Source: a virus. Taken from it: a DNA stretch of 64,000 bases. The stretch lies in IMG/VR virus record IMGVR_UViG_3300045988_176106. One strand, written 5' to 3'. This document shows, one piece after another, positions 12,701 through 61,278 of the stretch; position 1 is the stretch's first letter, and the number at the start of each line of letters is the position of its first letter. The position numbers and the translations under genes are program-made. The notes under the pieces were generated by a model. It saw nothing but the letters and a program-made list of their open reading frames with translations, was not told where the DNA came from and searched no databases.

Positions 12701-15700
12701 TATAAATAGCACATTGCTTAGAGACTATGCAGGATCAATAGCAGCAATAGAGTCAAGGGGAAGATTAAATCCTACTGGAAATGAATCATATTTAGGTATG
12801 TATCAAATAGGTCTAGATGGACTTATGGATATAGGATGGATAAGAAAAACAGCTCCAAGACATAAATCATCGTTATACAATGATGCATATTGGACAATCC
12901 CAGGAGGATATAAAGCCTTTATATCTAGTAGAGAATTACAGGACCAAGCATTTGTATTATATACTCAGAAGAACATAGATTACTTGTCTGCTAAGCCTGG
13001 ATGGAATAAATTAACATTCCAGGATAAGGTATTGGCATTAGCTATGTCACATAATGGTGGACATAGCGCAGGATGGAAAGCGTTACAGGGCAAAGATAGT
13101 TATGATGGAAATCGTACATCTAGACAGCAATATGGTAGAGTCGCAATGTCTCTTTCAGCAGCTGTTGCAAAAGGTACTGCAGGTGTCGGCATGTTCAGTA
13201 GAGACGCTGCAGGGTATACATCAAATTATTATGACAATGTAGCTGTACAGCGTAATAATGAGTCAGTAGAATTTAATACCGATCCTACGCCTTGGGATCC
13301 TGAACTTCAAGGTAAGGCAAGAATTTCTAACATGGTAAAAGATTACACATGGGGGCTTGAGAAACTTATTCCAACATATAAGGTTTATCTTGTCCATGGT
13401 AATAATGAAAATACATTATTTAAACTTATAAATACCAGTGTGGAAGCAGTATATTATGAAATATCTACTGTAAGGAATATCCGTGTAGAAATGGCAAACC
13501 AAGATAATCCTGTTGCTGTTGCATACTTTGAAGTCCTAAACTCTTTAAATACATCAACAGATCCAACTACTGGTTATAATACTGCAGATAAACTTGGTAA
13601 TACTAAACTTGATATAACATCATTAGGAAGTGATTTTGCCAATGTAGTTGCTATGGATCAAATAAGACTTAAAGCAGGTAATAAAGTTCAAATAAGAATG
13701 GGTTATGGCAACAAAATAGATGACCTACCTGTAATCTTTAATGGTCTTATTACAGAGACAGATGGCGGAGACGTTGTAAGAGTTGTAGCAGAAGGATACG
13801 GAAGAGAACTTCAAAATGAGTTAATATTTGCCGGAGATGTATTGCCATTTACTACCTTTGCTAGTGATACTTCTGGTAGATATATTTCTGCAGCAATTGC
13901 AAGAATAGTTAAGAATGCTAGACTTCAACATTTTGGTGCAAACCCAAAAATTCTTGGAGAGGATGTAGATACAAACTCTACAGGAACTGCAGCTCAAGGA
14001 GTATCTGGACAAAGCGGATTCTCATTATCTAACTCACTATGGAATTCCGAATCAGGTGAATTCTTCTTCTACGATTTTAAAGGTCCAACTGATCATTTAG
14101 AAAACTTCTGGCTGATGAACGTTGATATGGTTGATAGATTCTTCGTTACAGAATGGAATGATTTATTTCCATTCTCTCTTAACGACTATTTTGTTAATTT
14201 CCCCGTTTTAAATAAAACAGTATGGGATGTCATAACAACAGGAAGAAGATTATTCCCTTCATCAGTATCTCTTGTTAAAAACATAGGTGCTAGATGCACA
14301 TTATTTACAGGAATAAAAGAACAGCTAATGGTAGGTTATGAAACTACACATTCTGTTGCATCAGAAGTATTTAGTAATATAAATGGCGGACTACTAGATA
14401 AAGAAGAGCAACATGCTCAAGAGGTTGAAGAGGTAGCAAATGCTACAAATATAAAAGGTAGTTTGGGCATCCCTGTAAATACAACCAATGGTATAAAGAA
14501 AAGACAAAAAGAAACAACAGCTAAATTTGAGGTGCTAAGAGATAATCCTGGACAAGTTGCAGATGCTGTAAGTTCTGTCATGGATTCAAGAACTATAGAC
14601 CCAACTGCATGGGTTCCTGCTACAAACTTCCATATGTTTAGTAGTGCTACTAATATAATTAGTAATCAGCTTAGATTAAATCAGGATATTATTACACAGG
14701 CAAATGTCGAGTATGGTTCAGACCCAGGAGACTTTGGAACTGGTAAAAACAAAATGTTCGATATGAAAAGTAATGGTGGATTAATGCCAGCATTCGTTAA
14801 ATCATCTTATCTAAGTGATAGCACATTAAATACAGAAGGTATGGCTATAAAAACTGGACAAGGATATCTTCTTGAAGAGTTAGAAAAAATGTATACCGGA
14901 AGTGTAATAATATCTGGAAATCCAGATGTTGCTCCAGGAGATTATGCTTATATATCTGACTCATTAAGACAGATGAGTGGTGTAATGAAGTGTAGGGAAG
15001 TTCAACATATCTTGACTGAAGACGACGGATATATTACAATAATTACACCAGGAATGTTTGTTGAACCTGCAACACATTTATATTCTTCACTGTATATCAA
15101 GCTAGGAATGTTCTATTCTATGTTAGCTCAAGGTCAGAGAGAATATGCTCTTGTATCTGTAAACTCATCACCAACTGGTGAGATGTACAGCAAGTTATCA
15201 ATAGCTCCTACTAATATAGGCTTTTGGAGTGTTGGATGGGCTACGGCAGGATCATTAGCATCAGTAGCTGCATCTGGAATGTTGCTTAAAACAGCCGCAA
15301 CTCGTATATCTGCTGCATTATGGGGTCCGATAACAGGTCATATAGCATCTGGATGGGCACGATTTAGTAAGGTAAACTTCATAGTAAGAGGTTTATCATC
15401 TATGAAAGGTGCATTAGGTGGAGTATGGGCAAGAATCGTAACAGCAGGAAGAACTATAAGTACAGCAATAAATGCTGTGAGAACTGTTGGAATTGTATCT
15501 AGTATAGGTTCGGGTGGACTTATAATGGCAGCTGGTATAACAATAATTGTAGCAGCAGTAGTTATAGCTGTATGGGGTATTCTTAAAAATGTTTGGGAAG
15601 CAAACAAGGAAAGAATAACCATGAGACATAGAGCGTTAATGAAAATGCCATTAACTGTATATGGTCAAGAATATACAGCTGGTCTATTAGGATGGAATGA

Positions 15701-56543: not shown

Positions 56544-56565
56544 AGGCTGAGATTTCTCTCAGCCT
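56544..56565 (-). terminator. intrinsic terminator after dnaE
   Basis: Minus strand reads AGGCUGAGA GAAA UCUCAGCCU followed by UUUUCUUUUUUAUAU. The stem overlaps the dnaE stop codon. Confidence 0.8.
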
Positions 56566-57997
56566 ATCTTGTAGCTATCGTAACATCAGGAAGCTTGTTT
56601 AACATCCTTATTACATCGACATCAATCAATTTGGTATAAAATGGTCCAAATCTCATTTCAAAATCAGAGTCTTTCCTATCTATATTGACAGAATCGTATT
56701 TATTAGTAGGCACTTTAACCACTATTGATACAGCACCATCTGAGTCATATTTATTCTCAGGAATAATTTCTTGTATCTTATTCAATATAGACTTAAATCT
56801 TACACTACTAGGAATATCATCTAATATAATAAAAGCTTCTTTTACTTTATTTTTATGTTCTTCTTCTCGAACCTGTTCTTTGCATCGTTCACCTAAATCT
56901 ATAGCAACATTAACAATAGAATCAATTTCGCCATTACCTTTATAACTAGGCTTAGCAGATATAACTAATTGAAGATAATTACCAGAACGTAAAATATCTT
57001 TTAGTTTAGTATAATTAGGATCAAACACAGTAGCAGAAAAACGGTTTCCTTCACGATCTATACAATCTAGGAAGCACATCTTCTTACCAGTACGAGTATT
57101 TAAAGCACGAACAGATGAAATATAAGCAACAACAGACCCAGAAAACATACCTTTGTACATTACAGCAGATTTAACTTCTTCTGATGTAAAATGTCTTTCG
57201 GTAACAGTTTTTACTACTAGATCCATAGGATCGCCAGAAATATATACTCCAATAAAATTCTTTTCGTCTTCAAGAATATCAAATAAAGAAAATTCTTTAA
57301 AGGTTTTATCATCAAAATATTCAGATTCTTTTGATAAAAATTCTTTATATCTTTCTTTTATTTCATTAGTCATCTTGCCATCTTTAGCTATTTCGCGCTT
57401 AAATGATTTCTTAGGATCAAAGTCTAATTTAAACTTTTCATAAGAACGGAGCATAACACTTCGTTTATATCCAAAACAATCCATAGATCCAGAACGTATT
57501 AAAGCATCAATAGCTTTTTTAGTAATACTTGATCCAAATAAATGTGTTTTTAATAAGAAATCGCCGAAACTTTTAAATGGGCGCAATTCCATAATTTGCT
57601 TATAAATAGGTTCACCAATATTAACAATACCAGATAAACCATAAATAATATCATTATTCCTATCTAGTGTAAAACTACTATCAGATTCATTAAGATTAGG
57701 AGGTAAAATTTTAATACCATGAGCTTTAGCATCTTCCATATAAATACGTTGAGTAGTAGAATCAGTCTCACAACTTATAATAGAACAATAAAACTCATTA
57801 GGATAATTGGCTTTAAGCCAAGCAGTATAATAGGTCAAGTGACCATACGAGTAGGCATGCGAAGCATTAAATGCATACTGCGCAAACAGCATTAGTTCTT
57901 CCCAAAATGAACTAACTTTCCTTTCATCTTCGCCAGAAGCAACAGCACCACTAATAAACTTATCTCTTAGTGATGCAAGTAAAGCAGCATCTTTTTT
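56564..57997 (-). CDS. dnaE: DNA polymerase III alpha (DnaE-type) exon 4 (fingers C-terminal part, beta-binding and OB regions)
   Basis: Begins KKDAALLASLRDKF..., completing the LRKAVG|KK motif. Contains YAFNASHAYSYGHLTYYTAWLKANYPNEF (DnaE GFNKSH-type motif). Confidence 0.9.
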   Translation of the reverse strand, partial: KKDAALLASLRDKFISGAVASGEDERKVSSFWEELMLFAQYAFNASHAYSYGHLTYYTAWLKANYPNEFYCSIISCETDSTTQRIYMEDAKAHGIKILPPNLNESDSSFTLDRNNDIIYGLSGIVNIGEPIYKQIMELRPFKSFGDFLLKTHLFGSSITKKAIDALIRSGSMDCFGYKRSVMLRSYEKFKLDFDPKKSFKREIAKDGKMTNEIKERYKEFLSKESEYFDDKTFKEFSLFDILEDEKNFIGVYISGDPMDLVVKTVTERHFTSEEVKSAVMYKGMFSGSVVAYISSVRALNTRTGKKMCFLDCIDREGNRFSATVFDPNYTKLKDILRSGNYLQLVISAKPSYKGNGEIDSIVNVAIDLGERCKEQVREEEHKNKVKEAFIILDDIPSSVRFKSILNKIQEIIPENKYDSDGAVSIVVKVPTNKYDSVNIDRKDSDFEMRFGPFYTKLIDVDVIRMLNKLPDVTIATR

Positions 57998-58239
57998 CAA
58001 TTATGTTATTCTATTGGCTTTTTATCCAATAGTTCTTATACTTCATATTTGTATAAGTTCGGCGTACATTTTCATCCTATAGGGATGTCGAACACTCTTG
58101 GAGATATTATATCTTTTCAATCTCTACGCTCTACGGTGGCTTATAGTTTCTATAAACTTACCTCGGTATTAGCATCTCAGCCTTCACCGATTTTGCTCGA
58201 TACACATTGTTTTATTACTAAAACAAGGGGCAATTACTC
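57998..58239 (-). mobile_element. ORF-less intron 3 (group I-type), 242 nt
   Basis: The 5' exon ends ...GTAGGT (U at -1) and the intron ends ...AATTG (terminal G). An in-frame stop lies 2 codons into the intron. Dense hairpins and GC-richer than the exons. Shares a 17-nt core block with intron 2. Confidence 0.75.
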
Positions 58240-58696
58240 ACCTACAGCTTTTCTTAGTTTATCTGCTTCTATCTCTGTGAATCCGCACATATCCATTGAT
58301 AAACGGAGGAAACCTTCCTGAAAAATCAATTCGTTATGTGCATTTTCAAAAATATAATTATATTTTGGGAATATAAAGTCAGTCTTAGGGATTTCTCCAC
58401 TGATCTTACCAATTATACGTTCGACCAAGCCATGTATACCCATTGGCCCAGGCCGCCATGTACTAACACATACTGCTATATCATGTATTGTTTTAGGTTT
58501 ACACTTATTAATAAAAGAAGACATACCAGATTCTTCAAATTGGAATATGCCATAATTACGCCTATCCCACATAATCTTATATGCTTTTTCATCATCCATT
58601 GGTAATGTATACCAATCTATATCAATACCATGTCTATCTTTAATAAGCTTCTTAGCATACTCAAGTACGCCAAGCGTTTTTAAACCTAATATATCT
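58240..58696 (-). CDS. dnaE: DnaE-type polymerase exon 3
   Basis: Begins (L)DILGLKTLGVLEYA and contains GIFQFEESGM and STWRPGPMG (DnaE finger motifs). Ends ...EADKLRKAVG. Confidence 0.9.
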
Positions 58697-58966
58697 CAAA
58701 AAAATTCTATATATCAAATATATAGTGTTAAGTTTTTTATCTTAACAGTCCAGACTTCTTTTAATCTGGTTCGGCATATTTTTTCAACCGTTCTGGTTGC
58801 ACCGGCCTCGTGGGTAGATTATATTCTGATTAACAGTTTCACCACCTATGCTCTGCGCCTGACTATTGCTTTAAAATAGCCTTCGGACTCGAGTTAGCAT
58901 CACAGCCTTCTCGCTTAATTCCGGTGTAATAATAACCAATATTCCTATTGGAAACGCCAGATTCCT
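58697..58966 (-). mobile_element. ORF-less intron 2 (group I-type), 270 nt
   Basis: Splits a Leu codon (CT|A). The 5' exon ends in T and the intron ends ...TTTTTTTG. The junction restores GIVKLDILGL. Structured and GC-richer than the exons. Confidence 0.75.
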
Positions 58967-59922
58967 AGCTTAACAATACCAGCATATTCTTCAATTTTGT
59001 TCCCTTCCCATTGGGTAACAGTTTTACCTTTACTATCCCATAATGGAACATCTTCCCATAATGGTCTATCGGATAACGCTACTCCACAATTATGTACTGC
59101 AATACCATTAGCAACATATGAAGAATCATCTAAAACAGTAAGATTATATACATTAACTGTTTCATCATTCGATTCATTGTAATAATTAGACTGTTTCCAT
59201 ACATCAAGAACTAATCTTGTGGAAAGGCCTTTCCCTCCGGTATGTGAACTAACAACACCATAATGGCGACTTACATTTCCTGCTTTTACCCACCTACATT
59301 TACCAATATATAATCCATCTTCATCTGGCTCATCACTAAGACTGTCAAGTATAAGAATAGGATGATCAAGTGTACATTTTACAAATGAAAAATCATCATA
59401 ATTAGTTTGTTGATAGGCTAGATGAACAAGATTACTCTTTTTAGATTCATTTACTTGAGTATCTACTACAGGTTTCCAATTTAATGAAGCTGTTAAAGCT
59501 AAATATCCAACCTTAACATCTTCGATGTTCATATACTCAGGTTCAGAATCTTCAGCTCTTTTTATAGTAACTTTGGTTCCTGCAACGAAGCAAGCATGCA
59601 ATCCGGTACTTGAAATACAGTCTTGTAGCTTAATAGCATCATCCCAGATTTCTTTAATTTCTGGATCAGAATTATAAAGTTTCTTTATATCAGAATTTTC
59701 TTCTAATAAAACTTCTAATCTGGGACAATTTATATCAGGCATAAGATTAGAAATCTTATTTGCCTTTTCAAATGACATACCATGAATGCGGGCAGCCGAT
59801 TTAAATACTTGTTTACCAGCGGTATAAGTAATAGTACCCAAATGAGCAAATCCATCACCGTATTTTGCTTTTAAATAATCAAATACCTTTTGACGTTTAT
59901 CATTACTGAAGTCACTATCGAT
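58967..59922 (-). CDS. dnaE: DnaE-type polymerase exon 2 (includes intein)
   Basis: Begins IDSDFSNDKRQKVFDYLKAKYGDGFAHLGTITYTAG. Contains STGLHA-[intein]-CGVALSDRPLWEDVPLW. Ends EEYAGIVK(L). Confidence 0.9.
59089..59592 (-). mobile_element. mini-intein (168 aa, no endonuclease domain) in the DnaE HAxGV motif
   Basis: Starts CFVAGTKVTI (block A), has an internal CTLDHPI (block B TxxH), and ends NGIAVHN with a +1 Cys (CGVALS). Removing it restores GLHA-CGVALS, matching the bacterial KHAGGVVI motif. Confidence 0.85.
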
Positions 59923-61023
59923 CCTTTATGTTCAGTATGGGTCGCTAATTCCATACCCGGGAATAACCCAGCTGCATATTACTATGCAGAGCAGACTATA
60001 TCTTCACCATATTAAAATTAACTTAGGTGCTGTGCGCTTGGAGCCGCTTGGCTCTACTTCCAAAGGAATAGTCGTTACACGTTCAATATATAAAATATCG
60101 CTTCGCTCGGTATTGTCCATGTAGGAGTTCCACCGAATTCACACAGTTTTCATTTACTCTTTTCAGAATAAAGGGACTTTAAATCAACAAATCTATTATA
60201 TTTTCTATCTAAAAATATAGTTGAATCATTATATAGATAATTCATAATATTGAAAACCTGAATGTTCCCACCAATATCTATATCATAATTATCATTATTC
60301 CTGTCCTTATGTCTTTTATTAAGGGTTTTATGTTCAAACCCTATATATTTAAGGACAGAATTTAAAAAAGAAGAAGTTCCGCATAGCCTAAATCTATAAG
60401 TATATCCATTTTTTGCTTTATGTTTAGATAATGACCCATCGCCATCAAAATACCCACGTATAAAATGACGAACAAGATTCTCATCTATATTTGGAAAAAC
60501 TAATTTAAAAGTCTTGTTTTCTAAACATCCATGACTTATCAGATCATTCTTAAGTTTATTACTATAAATAATTACCCTAGCATACTCTCTATTAATATTA
60601 TTAGTGTACCTAGATATTTTATTATTAGCATTAAGACTTGCTAAAAATTTCTCAAGATGATTGATATCTTCAGTTGAAAGCGACAGTCCTATAGCATCTC
60701 TATCTGAAAGTATATATCCATCTGCATACATAAACCCAAGCCAATATGCTTTTTCTTCAGTATCTATAATATTGAAAAAATTATCATTACATTTATATTT
60801 TTTAGAATTTATAGAATTACTTCTTCTTTTTATATTTTTAGATTCAAGAACCGAATATACAGTATATAAACTTATGTCAAGTTCTTTTGAAATTTTGCAT
60901 CCAGAGATTTTATCATCTGTATACATTTTTACAATTTTATCTTCAATTTCCATATATACACCTTTCAAAAAAATTGATGTATACATATAGTAATTTATAA
61001 TTTAAGATTTGTCAATAATATTA
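59923..61023 (-). mobile_element. group I intron 1 (1101 nt) carrying a LAGLIDADG homing endonuclease ORF
   Basis: The 5' exon ends ...CCGGAT (U) and the intron ends ...AAAGG (G). The junction restores FPD|IDSDF. The minus strand carries AACGACUAUUCC (R-like) and GAAGAUAUAGUC (S-like) elements that can pair as P7. Confidence 0.85.
60150..60986 (-). CDS. intron-encoded double-motif LAGLIDADG homing endonuclease with N-terminal HTH-like region
   Basis: Motifs WLGFMYADGYI and FIRGYFDGDGSL. The N terminus ISKELDISLYTVYSVLESKNIKRR is HTH-like. The start may be the Met at 60953. Confidence 0.85.
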   Translation of the reverse strand: MYTSIFLKGVYMEIEDKIVKMYTDDKISGCKISKELDISLYTVYSVLESKNIKRRSNSINSKKYKCNDNFFNIIDTEEKAYWLGFMYADGYILSDRDAIGLSLSTEDINHLEKFLASLNANNKISRYTNNINREYARVIIYSNKLKNDLISHGCLENKTFKLVFPNIDENLVRHFIRGYFDGDGSLSKHKAKNGYTYRFRLCGTSSFLNSVLKYIGFEHKTLNKRHKDRNNDNYDIDIGGNIQVFNIMNYLYNDSTIFLDRKYNRFVDLKSLYSEKSK

Positions 61024-61278
61024 ATCCGGGAAGCCACCACCAACAGTATCAATACGTTTATGTGGCTCGATAGTTGTCATACCCAGTAAATATAAAATAT
61101 TACTACTATTTGGATTATCAAGGTCTTTAATACCAGCATTGTAAAGATTTAAAAAATAAGAATCAATATGATGGAGCTCACAATGATTAAGCTCAAACAT
61201 GATATTCTTCTTATTATGCAAAAACCACTCCTCTTGGGAGTGGCTTAATACTAATTCTCTTAAAGTTTTATATTTCAT
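61024..61278 (-). CDS. dnaE: DnaE-type polymerase exon 1 (palm N-terminal part; no PHP domain)
   Basis: 85 codons ending ...TVGGGFPD. ELNHCELHHIDSYFLNLYN and NSSNILYLLGMTTIEP are colinear with the E. coli DnaE region just before PDFDVDF. Confidence 0.8.

What the first reader, a model, noticed from the sequence alone, without database searches (positions are those of the whole stretch)
59923..61023. Intron 1 sits inside the catalytic Asp motif and has canonical group I R/S-like elements plus a LAGLIDADG gene
The 1101-nt insert separates FPD from IDSDF, the codons of the polymerase active-site aspartates. Read on the minus strand, it contains GAAGAUAUAGUC (plus-strand 59994-60005), identical over AAGAUAUAGUC to the classic group I S element. 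It also contains AACGACUAUUCC (plus-strand 60065-60076), and the two can pair GACUAU/AUAGUC as P7. A double-motif LAGLIDADG ORF (60150-60986) occupies the 5' part. That leaves about 37 nt of intron 5' and about 227 nt of catalytic core 3' of the ORF.
Basis: partly seen in the sequence, partly recalled or inferred. Interest (0 to 1): 0.7.

Follow-up and report, generated by a model that had tools for sequence, protein, structure and literature searches.

The report
Mobile group I intron in phage dnaE
A 1101-base self-splicing group I intron carrying its own LAGLIDADG homing-endonuclease gene splits the two catalytic aspartate codons of a phage DNA polymerase III alpha gene; it is a well-formed new example of a known kind, since Bacillus phage 0305phi8-36 has a related element at the same site.

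Summary

**Position.** The minus-strand insert 61023..59923 (1101 nt) lies between codon D85 (GAT, 61026..61024) and codon I86 of a PHP-less phage DnaE. D85 and D87 align with the catalytic residues D463 and D465 of Taq Pol III alpha.

**Ribozyme.** Rfam RF00028 scores 86.4 bits (gathering score 50). Eleven same-site homologues from a family of roughly 166-185 kb metagenomic phages support P1-P9.2. In a six-sequence alignment, 29 of 69 pairs show compensatory changes. The 3' half aligns helix by helix with the T4 td intron, which is subgroup IA2.

- The ORF sits in the P1 loop.
- Its last ~9 codons encode the internal guide sequence (IGS, AGUCC, 60178..60174) and P2, so the ribozyme is about 255 nt, not 227.
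- The likely start codon is ATG 60953, giving 267 aa with an N-terminal helix-turn-helix (HTH).

**Endonuclease.** The protein is a double-motif LAGLIDADG enzyme. AlphaFold2 gives pLDDT 93.7, and the top Foldseek matches are I-Tsp061I and I-AniI.

**Mobility.** In this phage family the same site is found with the endonuclease gene, ORF-less (253-279 nt), or empty.

**Novelty.** Bacillus phage 0305phi8-36 has a 40%-identical endonuclease at the same PD^ID site, so this is a new member of a known kind.

The parts
61024..61278 (-). dnaE exon 1 (85 aa, ends ...GGGFPD). D85 is GAT 61026..61024 and matches Taq D463.
   Evidence: ORF list; PDB alignment; intron-less relatives
59923..61023 (-). Intron 1, 1101 nt, a group I intron of td-like IA2 architecture. 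The 5' splice site follows U61024 and the terminal guanosine (omega-G) is 59923.
61023..61027 (-). P1 5' strand: exon GGAU plus intron U. U61024 forms the wobble pair with G60177.
   Evidence: The IGS is invariant in all homologues. The +1/-1 pair covaries (U-A to A-U in L006). The ORF-less L078 folds this as a simple hairpin.
61021..61023 (-). UAA in frame with exon 1, at the first three intron bases. It stops ribosomes at the splice site on unspliced RNA.
   Evidence: Sequence. The same UAA is present in L002-L005, L078 and L131-L133. Its function is inferred.
60987..61015 (-). Promoter-like TTGACA-17-TACTAT in the intron leader. This is weak evidence only.
   Evidence: Consensus scan, 10 of 12 positions; the region gives 22 matches against 10.5 expected.
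60150..60953 (-). Homing-endonuclease gene, 267 aa plus stop. It has an N-terminal three-helix HTH (aa 3-38) and two LAGLIDADG motifs, with D78 at 60722..60720 and D172 at 60440..60438. The Shine-Dalgarno sequence GAAAGG is at 60966..60961. The maximal ORF starts at 60986.
   Evidence: Pfam LAGLIDADG_3, 34.6 bits against a cut-off of 22.5; PHROG 4645, 1.3e-58; invariant D78 and D172 in 50 homologues; AF2 pLDDT 93.7; Foldseek to I-Tsp061I, I-AniI and I-OnuI at probability 1.0
60174..60178 (-). P1 3' strand, the internal guide sequence AGUCC, located inside the 3' end of the ORF.
60153..60172 (-). P2 hairpin with a GAAA loop, inside the ORF. The stop codon UGA (60152..60150) follows directly.
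   Evidence: 6 of 8 pairs have compensatory changes.
60030..60146 (-). P3 (60146..60140 with 60036..60030), which encloses P4 (60137..60132 / 60111..60106), P5, P6 (60100..60095 / 60089..60084), the P7 5' strand, P7.1 and P7.2 (60054..60050 / 60045..60041).
   Evidence: Covariation in P3, P4, P6, P7.1 and P7.2
60068..60073 (-). P7 5' strand GACUAU, within the R element AACGACUAU.
   Evidence: Aligned to the consensus in the RF00028 alignment; invariant in the homologues
59994..59999 (-). P7 3' strand AUAGUC, within the S element AAGAUAUAGUC (60004..59994).
60005..60029 (-). P8 hairpin (CACC...GGUG)
59935..59989 (-). P9 (GUAA loop), P9.1 and P9.2
   Evidence: 10 of 18 pairs have compensatory changes. 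The region is collinear with T4 td.
58967..59922 (-). dnaE exon 2, starting IDSDF (D87 at 59919..59917, matching Taq D465). It contains a 168-aa mini-intein.

Best explanation
The insert is a mobile group I intron of the phage IA2 (T4 td-like) type. It sits in phase 0 between the codons of the two catalytic aspartates (PD^IDSDF) of a phage DnaE-type replicative polymerase.

**Splicing (inferred from the anatomy).**
- In the pre-mRNA, the last four exon bases plus the first intron base (GGAU|U) pair with the internal guide AGUCC 845 nt downstream to form P1. The U-G wobble marks the 5' splice site.
- The core P3-P9.2, with the P3/P7 pseudoknot, binds guanosine at P7 and carries out the two transesterifications.
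- The intron's terminal guanosine (omega-G, G59923) defines the 3' splice site.
- Ligation restores ...FPD-IDSDF....

**The endonuclease.** The P1 loop carries a separately translated gene for a 267-aa HTH plus double-LAGLIDADG homing endonuclease. Its reading frame runs through the P1 3' strand and P2 and stops 1 nt after P2. In mixed infections this enzyme would cut intron-less dnaE alleles at the conserved active-site sequence, and the intron would be copied in by repair (homing).

**Shown:** the sequence motifs, the fold with covariation, restoration of the reading frame, the protein fold, and presence/absence polymorphism.
**Inferred:** actual self-splicing, endonuclease activity, and the endonuclease's target.
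For: **Ribozyme**
- RF00028 scores 86.4 bits, E = 6.8e-22, and is the only hit in the window in E-value mode.
- In 6 same-site homologues, 98.5% of cells are paired and 29 of 69 pairs change on both sides, against 1-4 in the slid controls and 0 of 500 shuffles.
- RNAalifold on 11 sequences independently recovers P2-P9.2, with 29 of 66 pairs compensatory.
- The natural ORF-less versions L078, L126 and L131-L133 (253-279 nt) sit at the identical site. The L078 minimum-free-energy fold gives P1 with the U-G pair exactly as predicted.
- The 3' half is 75.5% identical to the T4 td intron, is collinear from P7 to the terminal G, and ends CUGAACAUAA(A/U)G in both.

**Splice junction**
- The spliced frame is intact.
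- Relatives at 98% and 70% identity lack the insert and read GGGFPDIDSDF.
- D85 and D87 align with Taq D463 and D465.

**Endonuclease**
- Supported.

**Mobility**
- The site is found HEG-bearing, ORF-less and empty within one phage family.
- L006 and L126 differ by a clean 762-nt block in the P1 loop.

**Precedent**
- In 0305phi8-36, ORF240 is annotated as 'interrupted by a mobile intron' at PPD|IDVDF, with a 39.7%-identical endonuclease.
Against: - No splicing or cleavage data exist; everything rests on sequence.
- The exon part of P1 is short (4 bp plus 1 intron pair), and P1 must form across an 844-nt loop.
- P10 is weak: 3-5 bp, not conserved in register.
- P7 never varies, so covariation says nothing about it.
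- RNAalifold, which cannot draw pseudoknots, pairs the exon end with the S element instead of the IGS.
- Translation of the ORF through P1-3' and P2 could compete with folding.
- Rfam in gathering mode on the whole window missed the hit.
Confidence: 0.93

Rival explanations
1. The gene is fractured rather than spliced. A free-standing endonuclease gene separates two independently translated polymerase fragments, and the RNA is never spliced.
For: Fractured genes with embedded endonucleases are known in metagenomes (PMC2677866, listed). Exon 1 ends at a stop codon.
Against: - A complete ribozyme is maintained by compensatory changes.
- ORF-less 253-279-nt versions at the same site still interrupt the frame.
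- No start codon or ribosome-binding site is seen at the head of exon 2.
- The split would separate two aspartates that bind the same metal centre.
- Close relatives encode one continuous protein.
Confidence: 0.02
2. The intron splices, but the LAGLIDADG protein no longer acts as a homing nuclease. It would be a decaying passenger or mainly a splicing maturase, as with I-AniI and bI3.
For: - The top structural matches include the bifunctional I-AniI and the bI3 maturase.
- Truncated copies exist in relatives: P0123 at 191 aa and P0124 at 196 aa.
- P1 has to close an 844-nt loop, where a protein helper is plausible.
- ORF-less forms are common, so the endonuclease gene is often lost.
Against: - Both catalytic aspartates and the full length are kept, and both are invariant in 50 homologues.
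- ORF-less introns of the same family persist at the site, so the ribozyme does not obviously need the protein.
- The patchy distribution among phages 96-98% identical fits recent homing.
Confidence: 0.15
3. The splice sites are shifted by a base or more from 61024|61023 and 59923|59922.
For: The 3' end reads AAAGG, with two candidate G residues.
Against: - Only the stated pair of sites keeps the frame, the exon U paired to G, and PDIDSDF identical to intron-less relatives.
- Using G59924 gives GAU GAU CGA UAG, which is a stop.
- Shifting both sites by one base would give PEID.
Confidence: 0.03

Closest known systems
Bacillus thuringiensis phage 0305phi8-36: DNA polymerase III alpha (ORF240) mobile intron with ORF036 'mobile intron protein' (GenBank EF583821)
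   Same: - Same host gene family.
- Same insertion point and phase: CCGCCCGAT|ATTGACGTCGATTTC, i.e. PPD|IDVDF.
- The endonuclease is homologous (39.7% identity over 81% of the query).
- The endonuclease gene lies at the 5' side, and an AUAGUCCC guide sequence overlaps the ORF stop.
   Different: - Its ribozyme gives no RF00028 match even at E <= 10.
- By eye it lacks P7.1 and P7.2 and has a longer P5 region, so the core is of another type or very divergent.
- Its DnaE has a PHP domain; this one does not.
T4 td intron with I-TevI (subgroup IA2)
   Same: - The 3' half (P7, P7.1, P7.2, P3', P8, P7', P9, P9.1, P9.2 and the CUGAACAUAA-G tail) is 75.5% identical and collinear.
- Both are phage introns in a nucleotide- or DNA-metabolism gene, with an in-frame stop early in the intron.
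   Different: - From general knowledge, td carries a GIY-YIG enzyme in the P6 region. Here a LAGLIDADG enzyme lies in the P1 loop.
- The host gene differs.
Monomeric double-motif LAGLIDADG homing endonucleases (I-AniI, I-OnuI, I-Tsp061I, bI3 maturase)
   Same: - Two alpha-beta-beta-alpha-beta-beta-alpha domains.
- One acidic residue at the end of each LAGLIDADG helix.
- Foldseek probability 1.0.
   Different: - No PDB relative is detectable by sequence at E <= 1.
- There is an extra N-terminal three-helix HTH.
- It belongs to PHROG 4645, a large family found mostly in phage and bacterial metagenomes, with more than 3600 relatives.
Group I introns in DNA polymerase genes of Bastillevirinae, SPO1-like and Twort-like phages (PMC11878797)
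   Same: These are IA2/IA3-type ribozymes interrupted by a loop that encodes a homing nuclease. Replication genes are the preferred hosts, and several introns can occur in one gene.
   Different: - Those polymerases fall in PHROG 17 'DNA polymerase', not DnaE.
- Their nucleases are mostly HNH; LAGLIDADG was seen once among 45 introns.

Membership tests
Group I intron (Rfam RF00028) | Covariance-model score at or above the curated gathering score | tested here: met
   86.4 bits against 50, covering model positions 1-253. The hit was missed in gathering mode on the full window.
Group I intron (Rfam RF00028) | P1 with a U-G wobble at the 5' splice site, formed with an internal guide sequence | tested here: met
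   GGAU|U pairs with AGUCC. GUCC is invariant, the neighbouring pair covaries, and the ORF-less L078 folds it as a hairpin.
Group I intron (Rfam RF00028) | Conserved core P3-P8 with the P3/P7 pseudoknot and the R/S (P7) elements | tested here: met
   Compensatory changes occur in P3, P4, P6 and P8. The P7 sequence matches the consensus but never varies.
Group I intron (Rfam RF00028) | Terminal guanosine (omega-G) at the 3' splice site, and exon ligation that restores the gene | tested here: met
   G59923 is the last intron base. The spliced frame is intact and collinear with intron-less homologues.
Group I intron (Rfam RF00028) | Guanosine-dependent self-splicing | not testable with these tools
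   This needs in vitro transcription and splicing, or RNA from infected cells.
Subgroup IA2 (T4 td type) | Extra helices P7.1 and P7.2 between P7 and the 3' strand of P3, plus P9.1 and P9.2 | tested here: met
   The helices are present and covary. P7.1 is deleted in the L004/L078 branch. The region is collinear with td.
Subgroup IA2 (T4 td type) | Best score with a subgroup-specific covariance model (GISSD-type models) | not tested
LAGLIDADG homing endonuclease, monomeric two-motif class | Two LAGLIDADG helices, each ending in a catalytic acidic residue | tested here: met
   The motifs are WLGFMYADG (D78) and IRGYFDGDG (D172), both invariant in 50 homologues. Pfam PF14528 scores 34.6 bits against a cut-off of 22.5.
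LAGLIDADG homing endonuclease, monomeric two-motif class | Pseudo-dimeric alpha-beta-beta-alpha-beta-beta-alpha fold | tested here: met
   The AF2 model has pLDDT 93.7 and pTM 0.81 with the expected order of elements. The top 50 Foldseek PDB matches are LAGLIDADG enzymes.
LAGLIDADG homing endonuclease, monomeric two-motif class | Site-specific cleavage of the intron-less allele, and homing | not testable with these tools
   Support is indirect only: presence/absence among phages 96-98% identical.

The most novel reading that the evidence does not exclude
One lineage of HTH-LAGLIDADG endonuclease, tied to the PD^ID active-site target of DnaE, is found inside two structurally different ribozymes: a td-like IA2 core here, and a core invisible to RF00028 in phage 0305phi8-36. 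Within one phage family it also enters and leaves the P1 loop as a discrete cassette, seen as a 762-nt block flanked by an 8-nt repeat. This would be a natural case of the endonuclease and the ribozyme evolving as separable modules that meet at the same conserved target.
Probability: 0.3. Interest if true: 0.45.

Novelty: new member of a known kind. Interest (0 to 1): 0.3.

Why it matters
- **Annotation.** The gene encodes one 865-aa polymerase after removal of three introns and one intein. Gene callers instead report fragments of 85, 298, 121 and 478 aa.
- **A textbook case.** It illustrates the rule that homing elements settle in the most conserved, active-site-coding DNA (PMC2814812).
- **A comparative set.** This phage family shows the site filled with the endonuclease gene, filled without it, and empty, which is useful for studying the homing cycle.
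- **An uncharacterised enzyme family.** The endonuclease belongs to a large family with an added HTH domain and no solved structure detectable by sequence. Its long, conserved target could interest those looking for new meganuclease scaffolds.

None of this changes current understanding.

Tried and rejected
- **Rfam, gathering mode, whole window:** no hit. This was a filter artefact; E-value mode finds the intron.
- **Near-identity search against GenBank phages:** no relative of the window.
- **PDB sequence search with the endonuclease:** nothing at E <= 1.
- **NCBIfam:** only noise.
- **Internal guide sequence in the 37-nt 5' leader:** none fits. The guide lies 845 nt downstream.
- **P10:** UUGAU/AUCGA pairs in the window, but only 3 bp are shared across homologues and not in register. 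It is left as unsupported.
- **Intron-internal promoter TTGACA-17-TACTAT:** real as a match, but the AT-rich region gives 22 matches against 10.5 expected, and it is absent from the more distant homologues.
- **Co-conversion tract around the site (window against L001):** differences are spread evenly, so there is no signal.
- **The -7 and +3 synonymous differences next to the site:** they do not track intron presence.
- **RNAalifold's pairing of the exon end with the S element:** rejected as a consequence of the no-pseudoknot rule and a one-column MAFFT shift.
- **Literature searches for a described group I intron in phage dnaE:** no paper found. The precedent is the GenBank annotation of 0305phi8-36.
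- **A second AACGACTAT at 14181(+):** no RF00028 signal there.

Full report
**1. The observation**

On the minus strand, exon 1 of a DnaE-type polymerase gene (61278..61024) ends ...GGU GGC UUC CCG GAU, followed at once by UAA. The frame resumes at 59922 with AUC GAU AGU GAC UUC. The insert is 61023..59923, exactly 1101 nt.

GAAGAUAUAGUC lies at 60005..59994 and AACGACUAUUCC at 60076..60065, as stated. The exact 11-mer AAGATATAGTC occurs once in 64 kb.

The spliced protein aligns with Thermus aquaticus Pol III alpha (2HPI, E = 8e-90). FPDIDSDF lies over MPDIDTDF, so D85 and D87 correspond to D463 and D465. From general knowledge, these are two of the three catalytic aspartates, equivalent to E. 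coli D401 and D403. The intron therefore lies between the codon of the first catalytic aspartate and the next codon, in phase 0.

**2. It is a group I intron**

- **Rfam.** Gathering mode on the whole window returned nothing. E-value mode gives RF00028 at 60200..59972(-) with 86.4 bits (gathering score 50), E = 6.8e-22 over 3.6 kb and 1.2e-20 over the whole window. The first result was a speed-filter loss.
- **P7.**
- **Similarity to known introns.** blastn against GenBank phages matches the 3' 150-220 nt to known phage group I introns. These include T4 td (75.5%), Klebsiella and Staphylococcus phage introns, and a T4-like DNA polymerase intron annotated Intron_gpI.
- **Alignment with td.** A pairwise alignment with td is collinear from P7 through P7.1, P7.2, P3', P8, P7', P9, P9.1 and P9.2 to the tail CUGAACAUAA(A/U)G. 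The architecture is that of phage subgroup IA2. No subgroup-specific models were available for a formal test.

**3. Boundaries**

Joining 61278..61024, 59922..58967, 58696..58240 and 57997..56564 gives an open 3102-nt frame.

A database search with the mature protein found many relatives on contigs of 166-188 kb. P0006 (98% identical), P0003, P0005 and P0008 (85-96%) and P0001/P0002 (70%, full length at 859 aa) all read GGGFPDIDSDFS... without interruption.

At the DNA level, the empty site in L001 is GGCTTTCCGGAT|ATTGATAGTGAC. The window has GGCTTCCCGGAT|[intron]|ATCGATAGTGAC. Only these splice sites keep the frame, the exon U, the terminal G and the conserved PDID.

**4. Fold and covariation**

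- **Same-site homologues with an ORF.** The endonuclease's homologues led to L003 (98% protein identity), L002 (80%), L005 (62%), L004 (57%) and L006/L007 (59%).
- **Same-site homologues without an ORF.** A 15-mer scan and a scan with an intron 2 22-mer added five ORF-less introns of 253-279 nt: L078, L126, L131, L132 and L133. They also added one more empty site, L130.
- **Pair counts.** On six sequences, my structure (13 helices, 69 pairs) is 98.5% paired. 29 pairs change on both sides, against 1-4 when the partners are slid by 1-3 columns. No shuffle of 500 reached the observed values for four of the five measures.
- **Independent prediction.** RNAalifold on all eleven recovered P2, P3, P4, P5, P6, P7.2, P8, P9, P9.1 and P9.2, with 29 of 66 pairs compensatory.
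- **P7.** It is invariant, so covariation is silent there.

**5. Where P1 is, and where the ORF sits**

No guide sequence exists in the 5' leader. All homologues share GUCC(C) about 255 nt from the 3' end, at 60177..60174 in the window. This pairs with the exon's GGAU, placing the U-G wobble at the splice site. The adjacent pair covaries: U-A in most, A-U in L006.

The ORF-less introns settle the point. L078 reads GGAU|UAAAUUAGUCC, and its minimum-free-energy fold draws exactly this hairpin together with the rest of the core.

The endonuclease gene therefore lies in the P1 loop, which is 844 nt here against 3-5 nt in L078. The last ~9 codons of the ORF encode the P1 3' strand and P2, and the UGA stop (60152..60150) follows P2 by one base. 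The ribozyme is thus about 255 nt contiguous plus the first intron base, not 227 + 37.

L006 (with ORF) and L126 (without) are identical for the first 11 nt and 96% identical over the last 268 nt. They differ by one 762-nt block flanked by ATTTAAAA on both sides, so the gene behaves as a cassette.

**6. The protein**

- **Start codon.** The likely start is ATG 60953, with GAAAGG 7 nt upstream, and the homologues start there. This gives 267 aa.
- **Family assignment.** Pfam LAGLIDADG_3 passes its cut-off and PHROG 4645 'endonuclease' matches at 1.3e-58. More than 3600 relatives exist.
- **Conserved residues.** Fifty of those relatives were aligned. ADG (D78) and DGDG (D170, D172) are invariant.
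- **Predicted structure.** AlphaFold2 gives pLDDT 93.7 and pTM 0.81. The model has a three-helix N-terminal domain followed by two alpha-beta-beta-alpha-beta-beta-alpha units.
- **Structural matches.** All top Foldseek matches are monomeric LAGLIDADG enzymes: I-Tsp061I, I-AniI, bI3 maturase and I-OnuI. No PDB relative is visible by sequence.

**7. Mechanism**

- **Shown:** the anatomy above.
- **Inferred:** guanosine-initiated two-step splicing that restores FPD-IDSDF; homing by cleavage of the empty site.
- **Ribosome stop at the splice site:** the first three intron bases are an in-frame UAA, conserved in the UAA-type homologues. This probably stops ribosomes at P1, as is known for phage introns.
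- **Possible internal promoter:** a near-consensus promoter-like site lies in the leader (61015..60987), but such matches are common in this AT-rich DNA.
- **Recent mobility:** the patchy distribution of filled-with-gene, filled-without-gene and empty sites among phages that are otherwise 96-98% identical is the expected signature.

**8. Comparison with known elements**

tblastn of the endonuclease against GenBank phages hits Bacillus phage 0305phi8-36. There, ORF240 (DNA polymerase III alpha) is annotated 'coding region interrupted by a mobile intron' and ORF036 is annotated 'mobile intron protein' (39.7% identity).

Its junction is CCGCCCGAT|...|ATTGACGTCGATTTC, i.e. PPD|IDVDF, the same site and phase. 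An AUAGUCCC guide overlaps the ORF stop. The kind of element, the host gene and even the site are therefore already on record.

That ribozyme gives no RF00028 match at E <= 10. By eye it lacks P7.1 and P7.2, so the same endonuclease lineage and target appear with two different cores. I did not test this further.

A recent survey of Bastillevirinae phages finds the same general pattern: IA2/IA3 cores, nuclease-bearing loops and polymerase genes as hosts. LAGLIDADG nucleases were rare there (PMC11878797).

**9. Verdict**

This is a new member of a known kind. Interest is modest.

Noticed in passing
window 58697-58966 (-): A second intervening sequence of 270 nt with no ORF splits GIVKL|DILGL. 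Relatives lack it (P0006). RF00028 does not see it even when it is searched alone. The minimum-free-energy fold gives a P1 hairpin with U-G at the splice site, a P3 CACCGG/CCGGUG pairing and a terminal G. It is probably a group I intron of a type that Rfam misses. Copies at 85-98% identity exist in four IMG/VR contigs of about 184 kb (L130-L133).
   Followed up: partly
window 57998-58239 (-): A third intervening sequence of 242 nt splits KAVG|KKDAALL. RF00028 gives only 23.6 bits. Homologues are present in L001, L002, L004 and L006/L007. In L002 an extra LAGLIDADG ORF lies between the end of that exon and the region homologous to intron 3.
   Followed up: partly
window 59086-59589 (-): A 168-aa mini-intein (CFVAGT...VHN, followed by C+1) is inserted after GLHA in exon 2. 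Relative P0008 carries a much larger insertion at the same place that ends ...THN|C. P0001 and P0002 have none.
   Followed up: partly
window 56564-61278 (-): This DnaE has no PHP domain. Only 85 residues precede the catalytic aspartates, and the full-length relatives (859 aa) also lack PF02811. The two ORFs directly upstream were not examined for a separate PHP or exonuclease.
   Followed up: no
whole window: Method caveat: Rfam in gathering mode on all 64 kb reported no family at all, although intron 1 scores 86.4 bits against a gathering score of 50 in E-value mode. Large-window gathering scans can lose true group I introns to the speed filters.
   Followed up: yes
L006 2490-3530 compared with L126 (reverse strand, 279-nt intron): Introns with and without the endonuclease gene, from the same sub-lineage, differ by one 762-nt block in the P1 loop bounded by the direct repeat ATTTAAAA. 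In L006 the ORF (315 aa) reads on into the ribozyme core.
   Followed up: partly
L128 3815-4927 (Bacillus phage 0305phi8-36, EF583821): The intron at the same dnaE site has a homologous endonuclease, but its core is not recognised by RF00028 and has no P7.1 or P7.2 by eye. This may be a case of one endonuclease lineage and target combined with two ribozyme types.
   Followed up: partly
L004 4212-4452 and L006 4220-4458: Relatives carry yet another strong group I intron (RF00028 at 103-104 bits) further into dnaE, followed by another LAGLIDADG ORF. This site is not occupied in the window.
   Followed up: no
Many lie in contigs of 20-90 kb unrelated to this phage family, so this core type is widespread in uncultivated phages.
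   Followed up: partly
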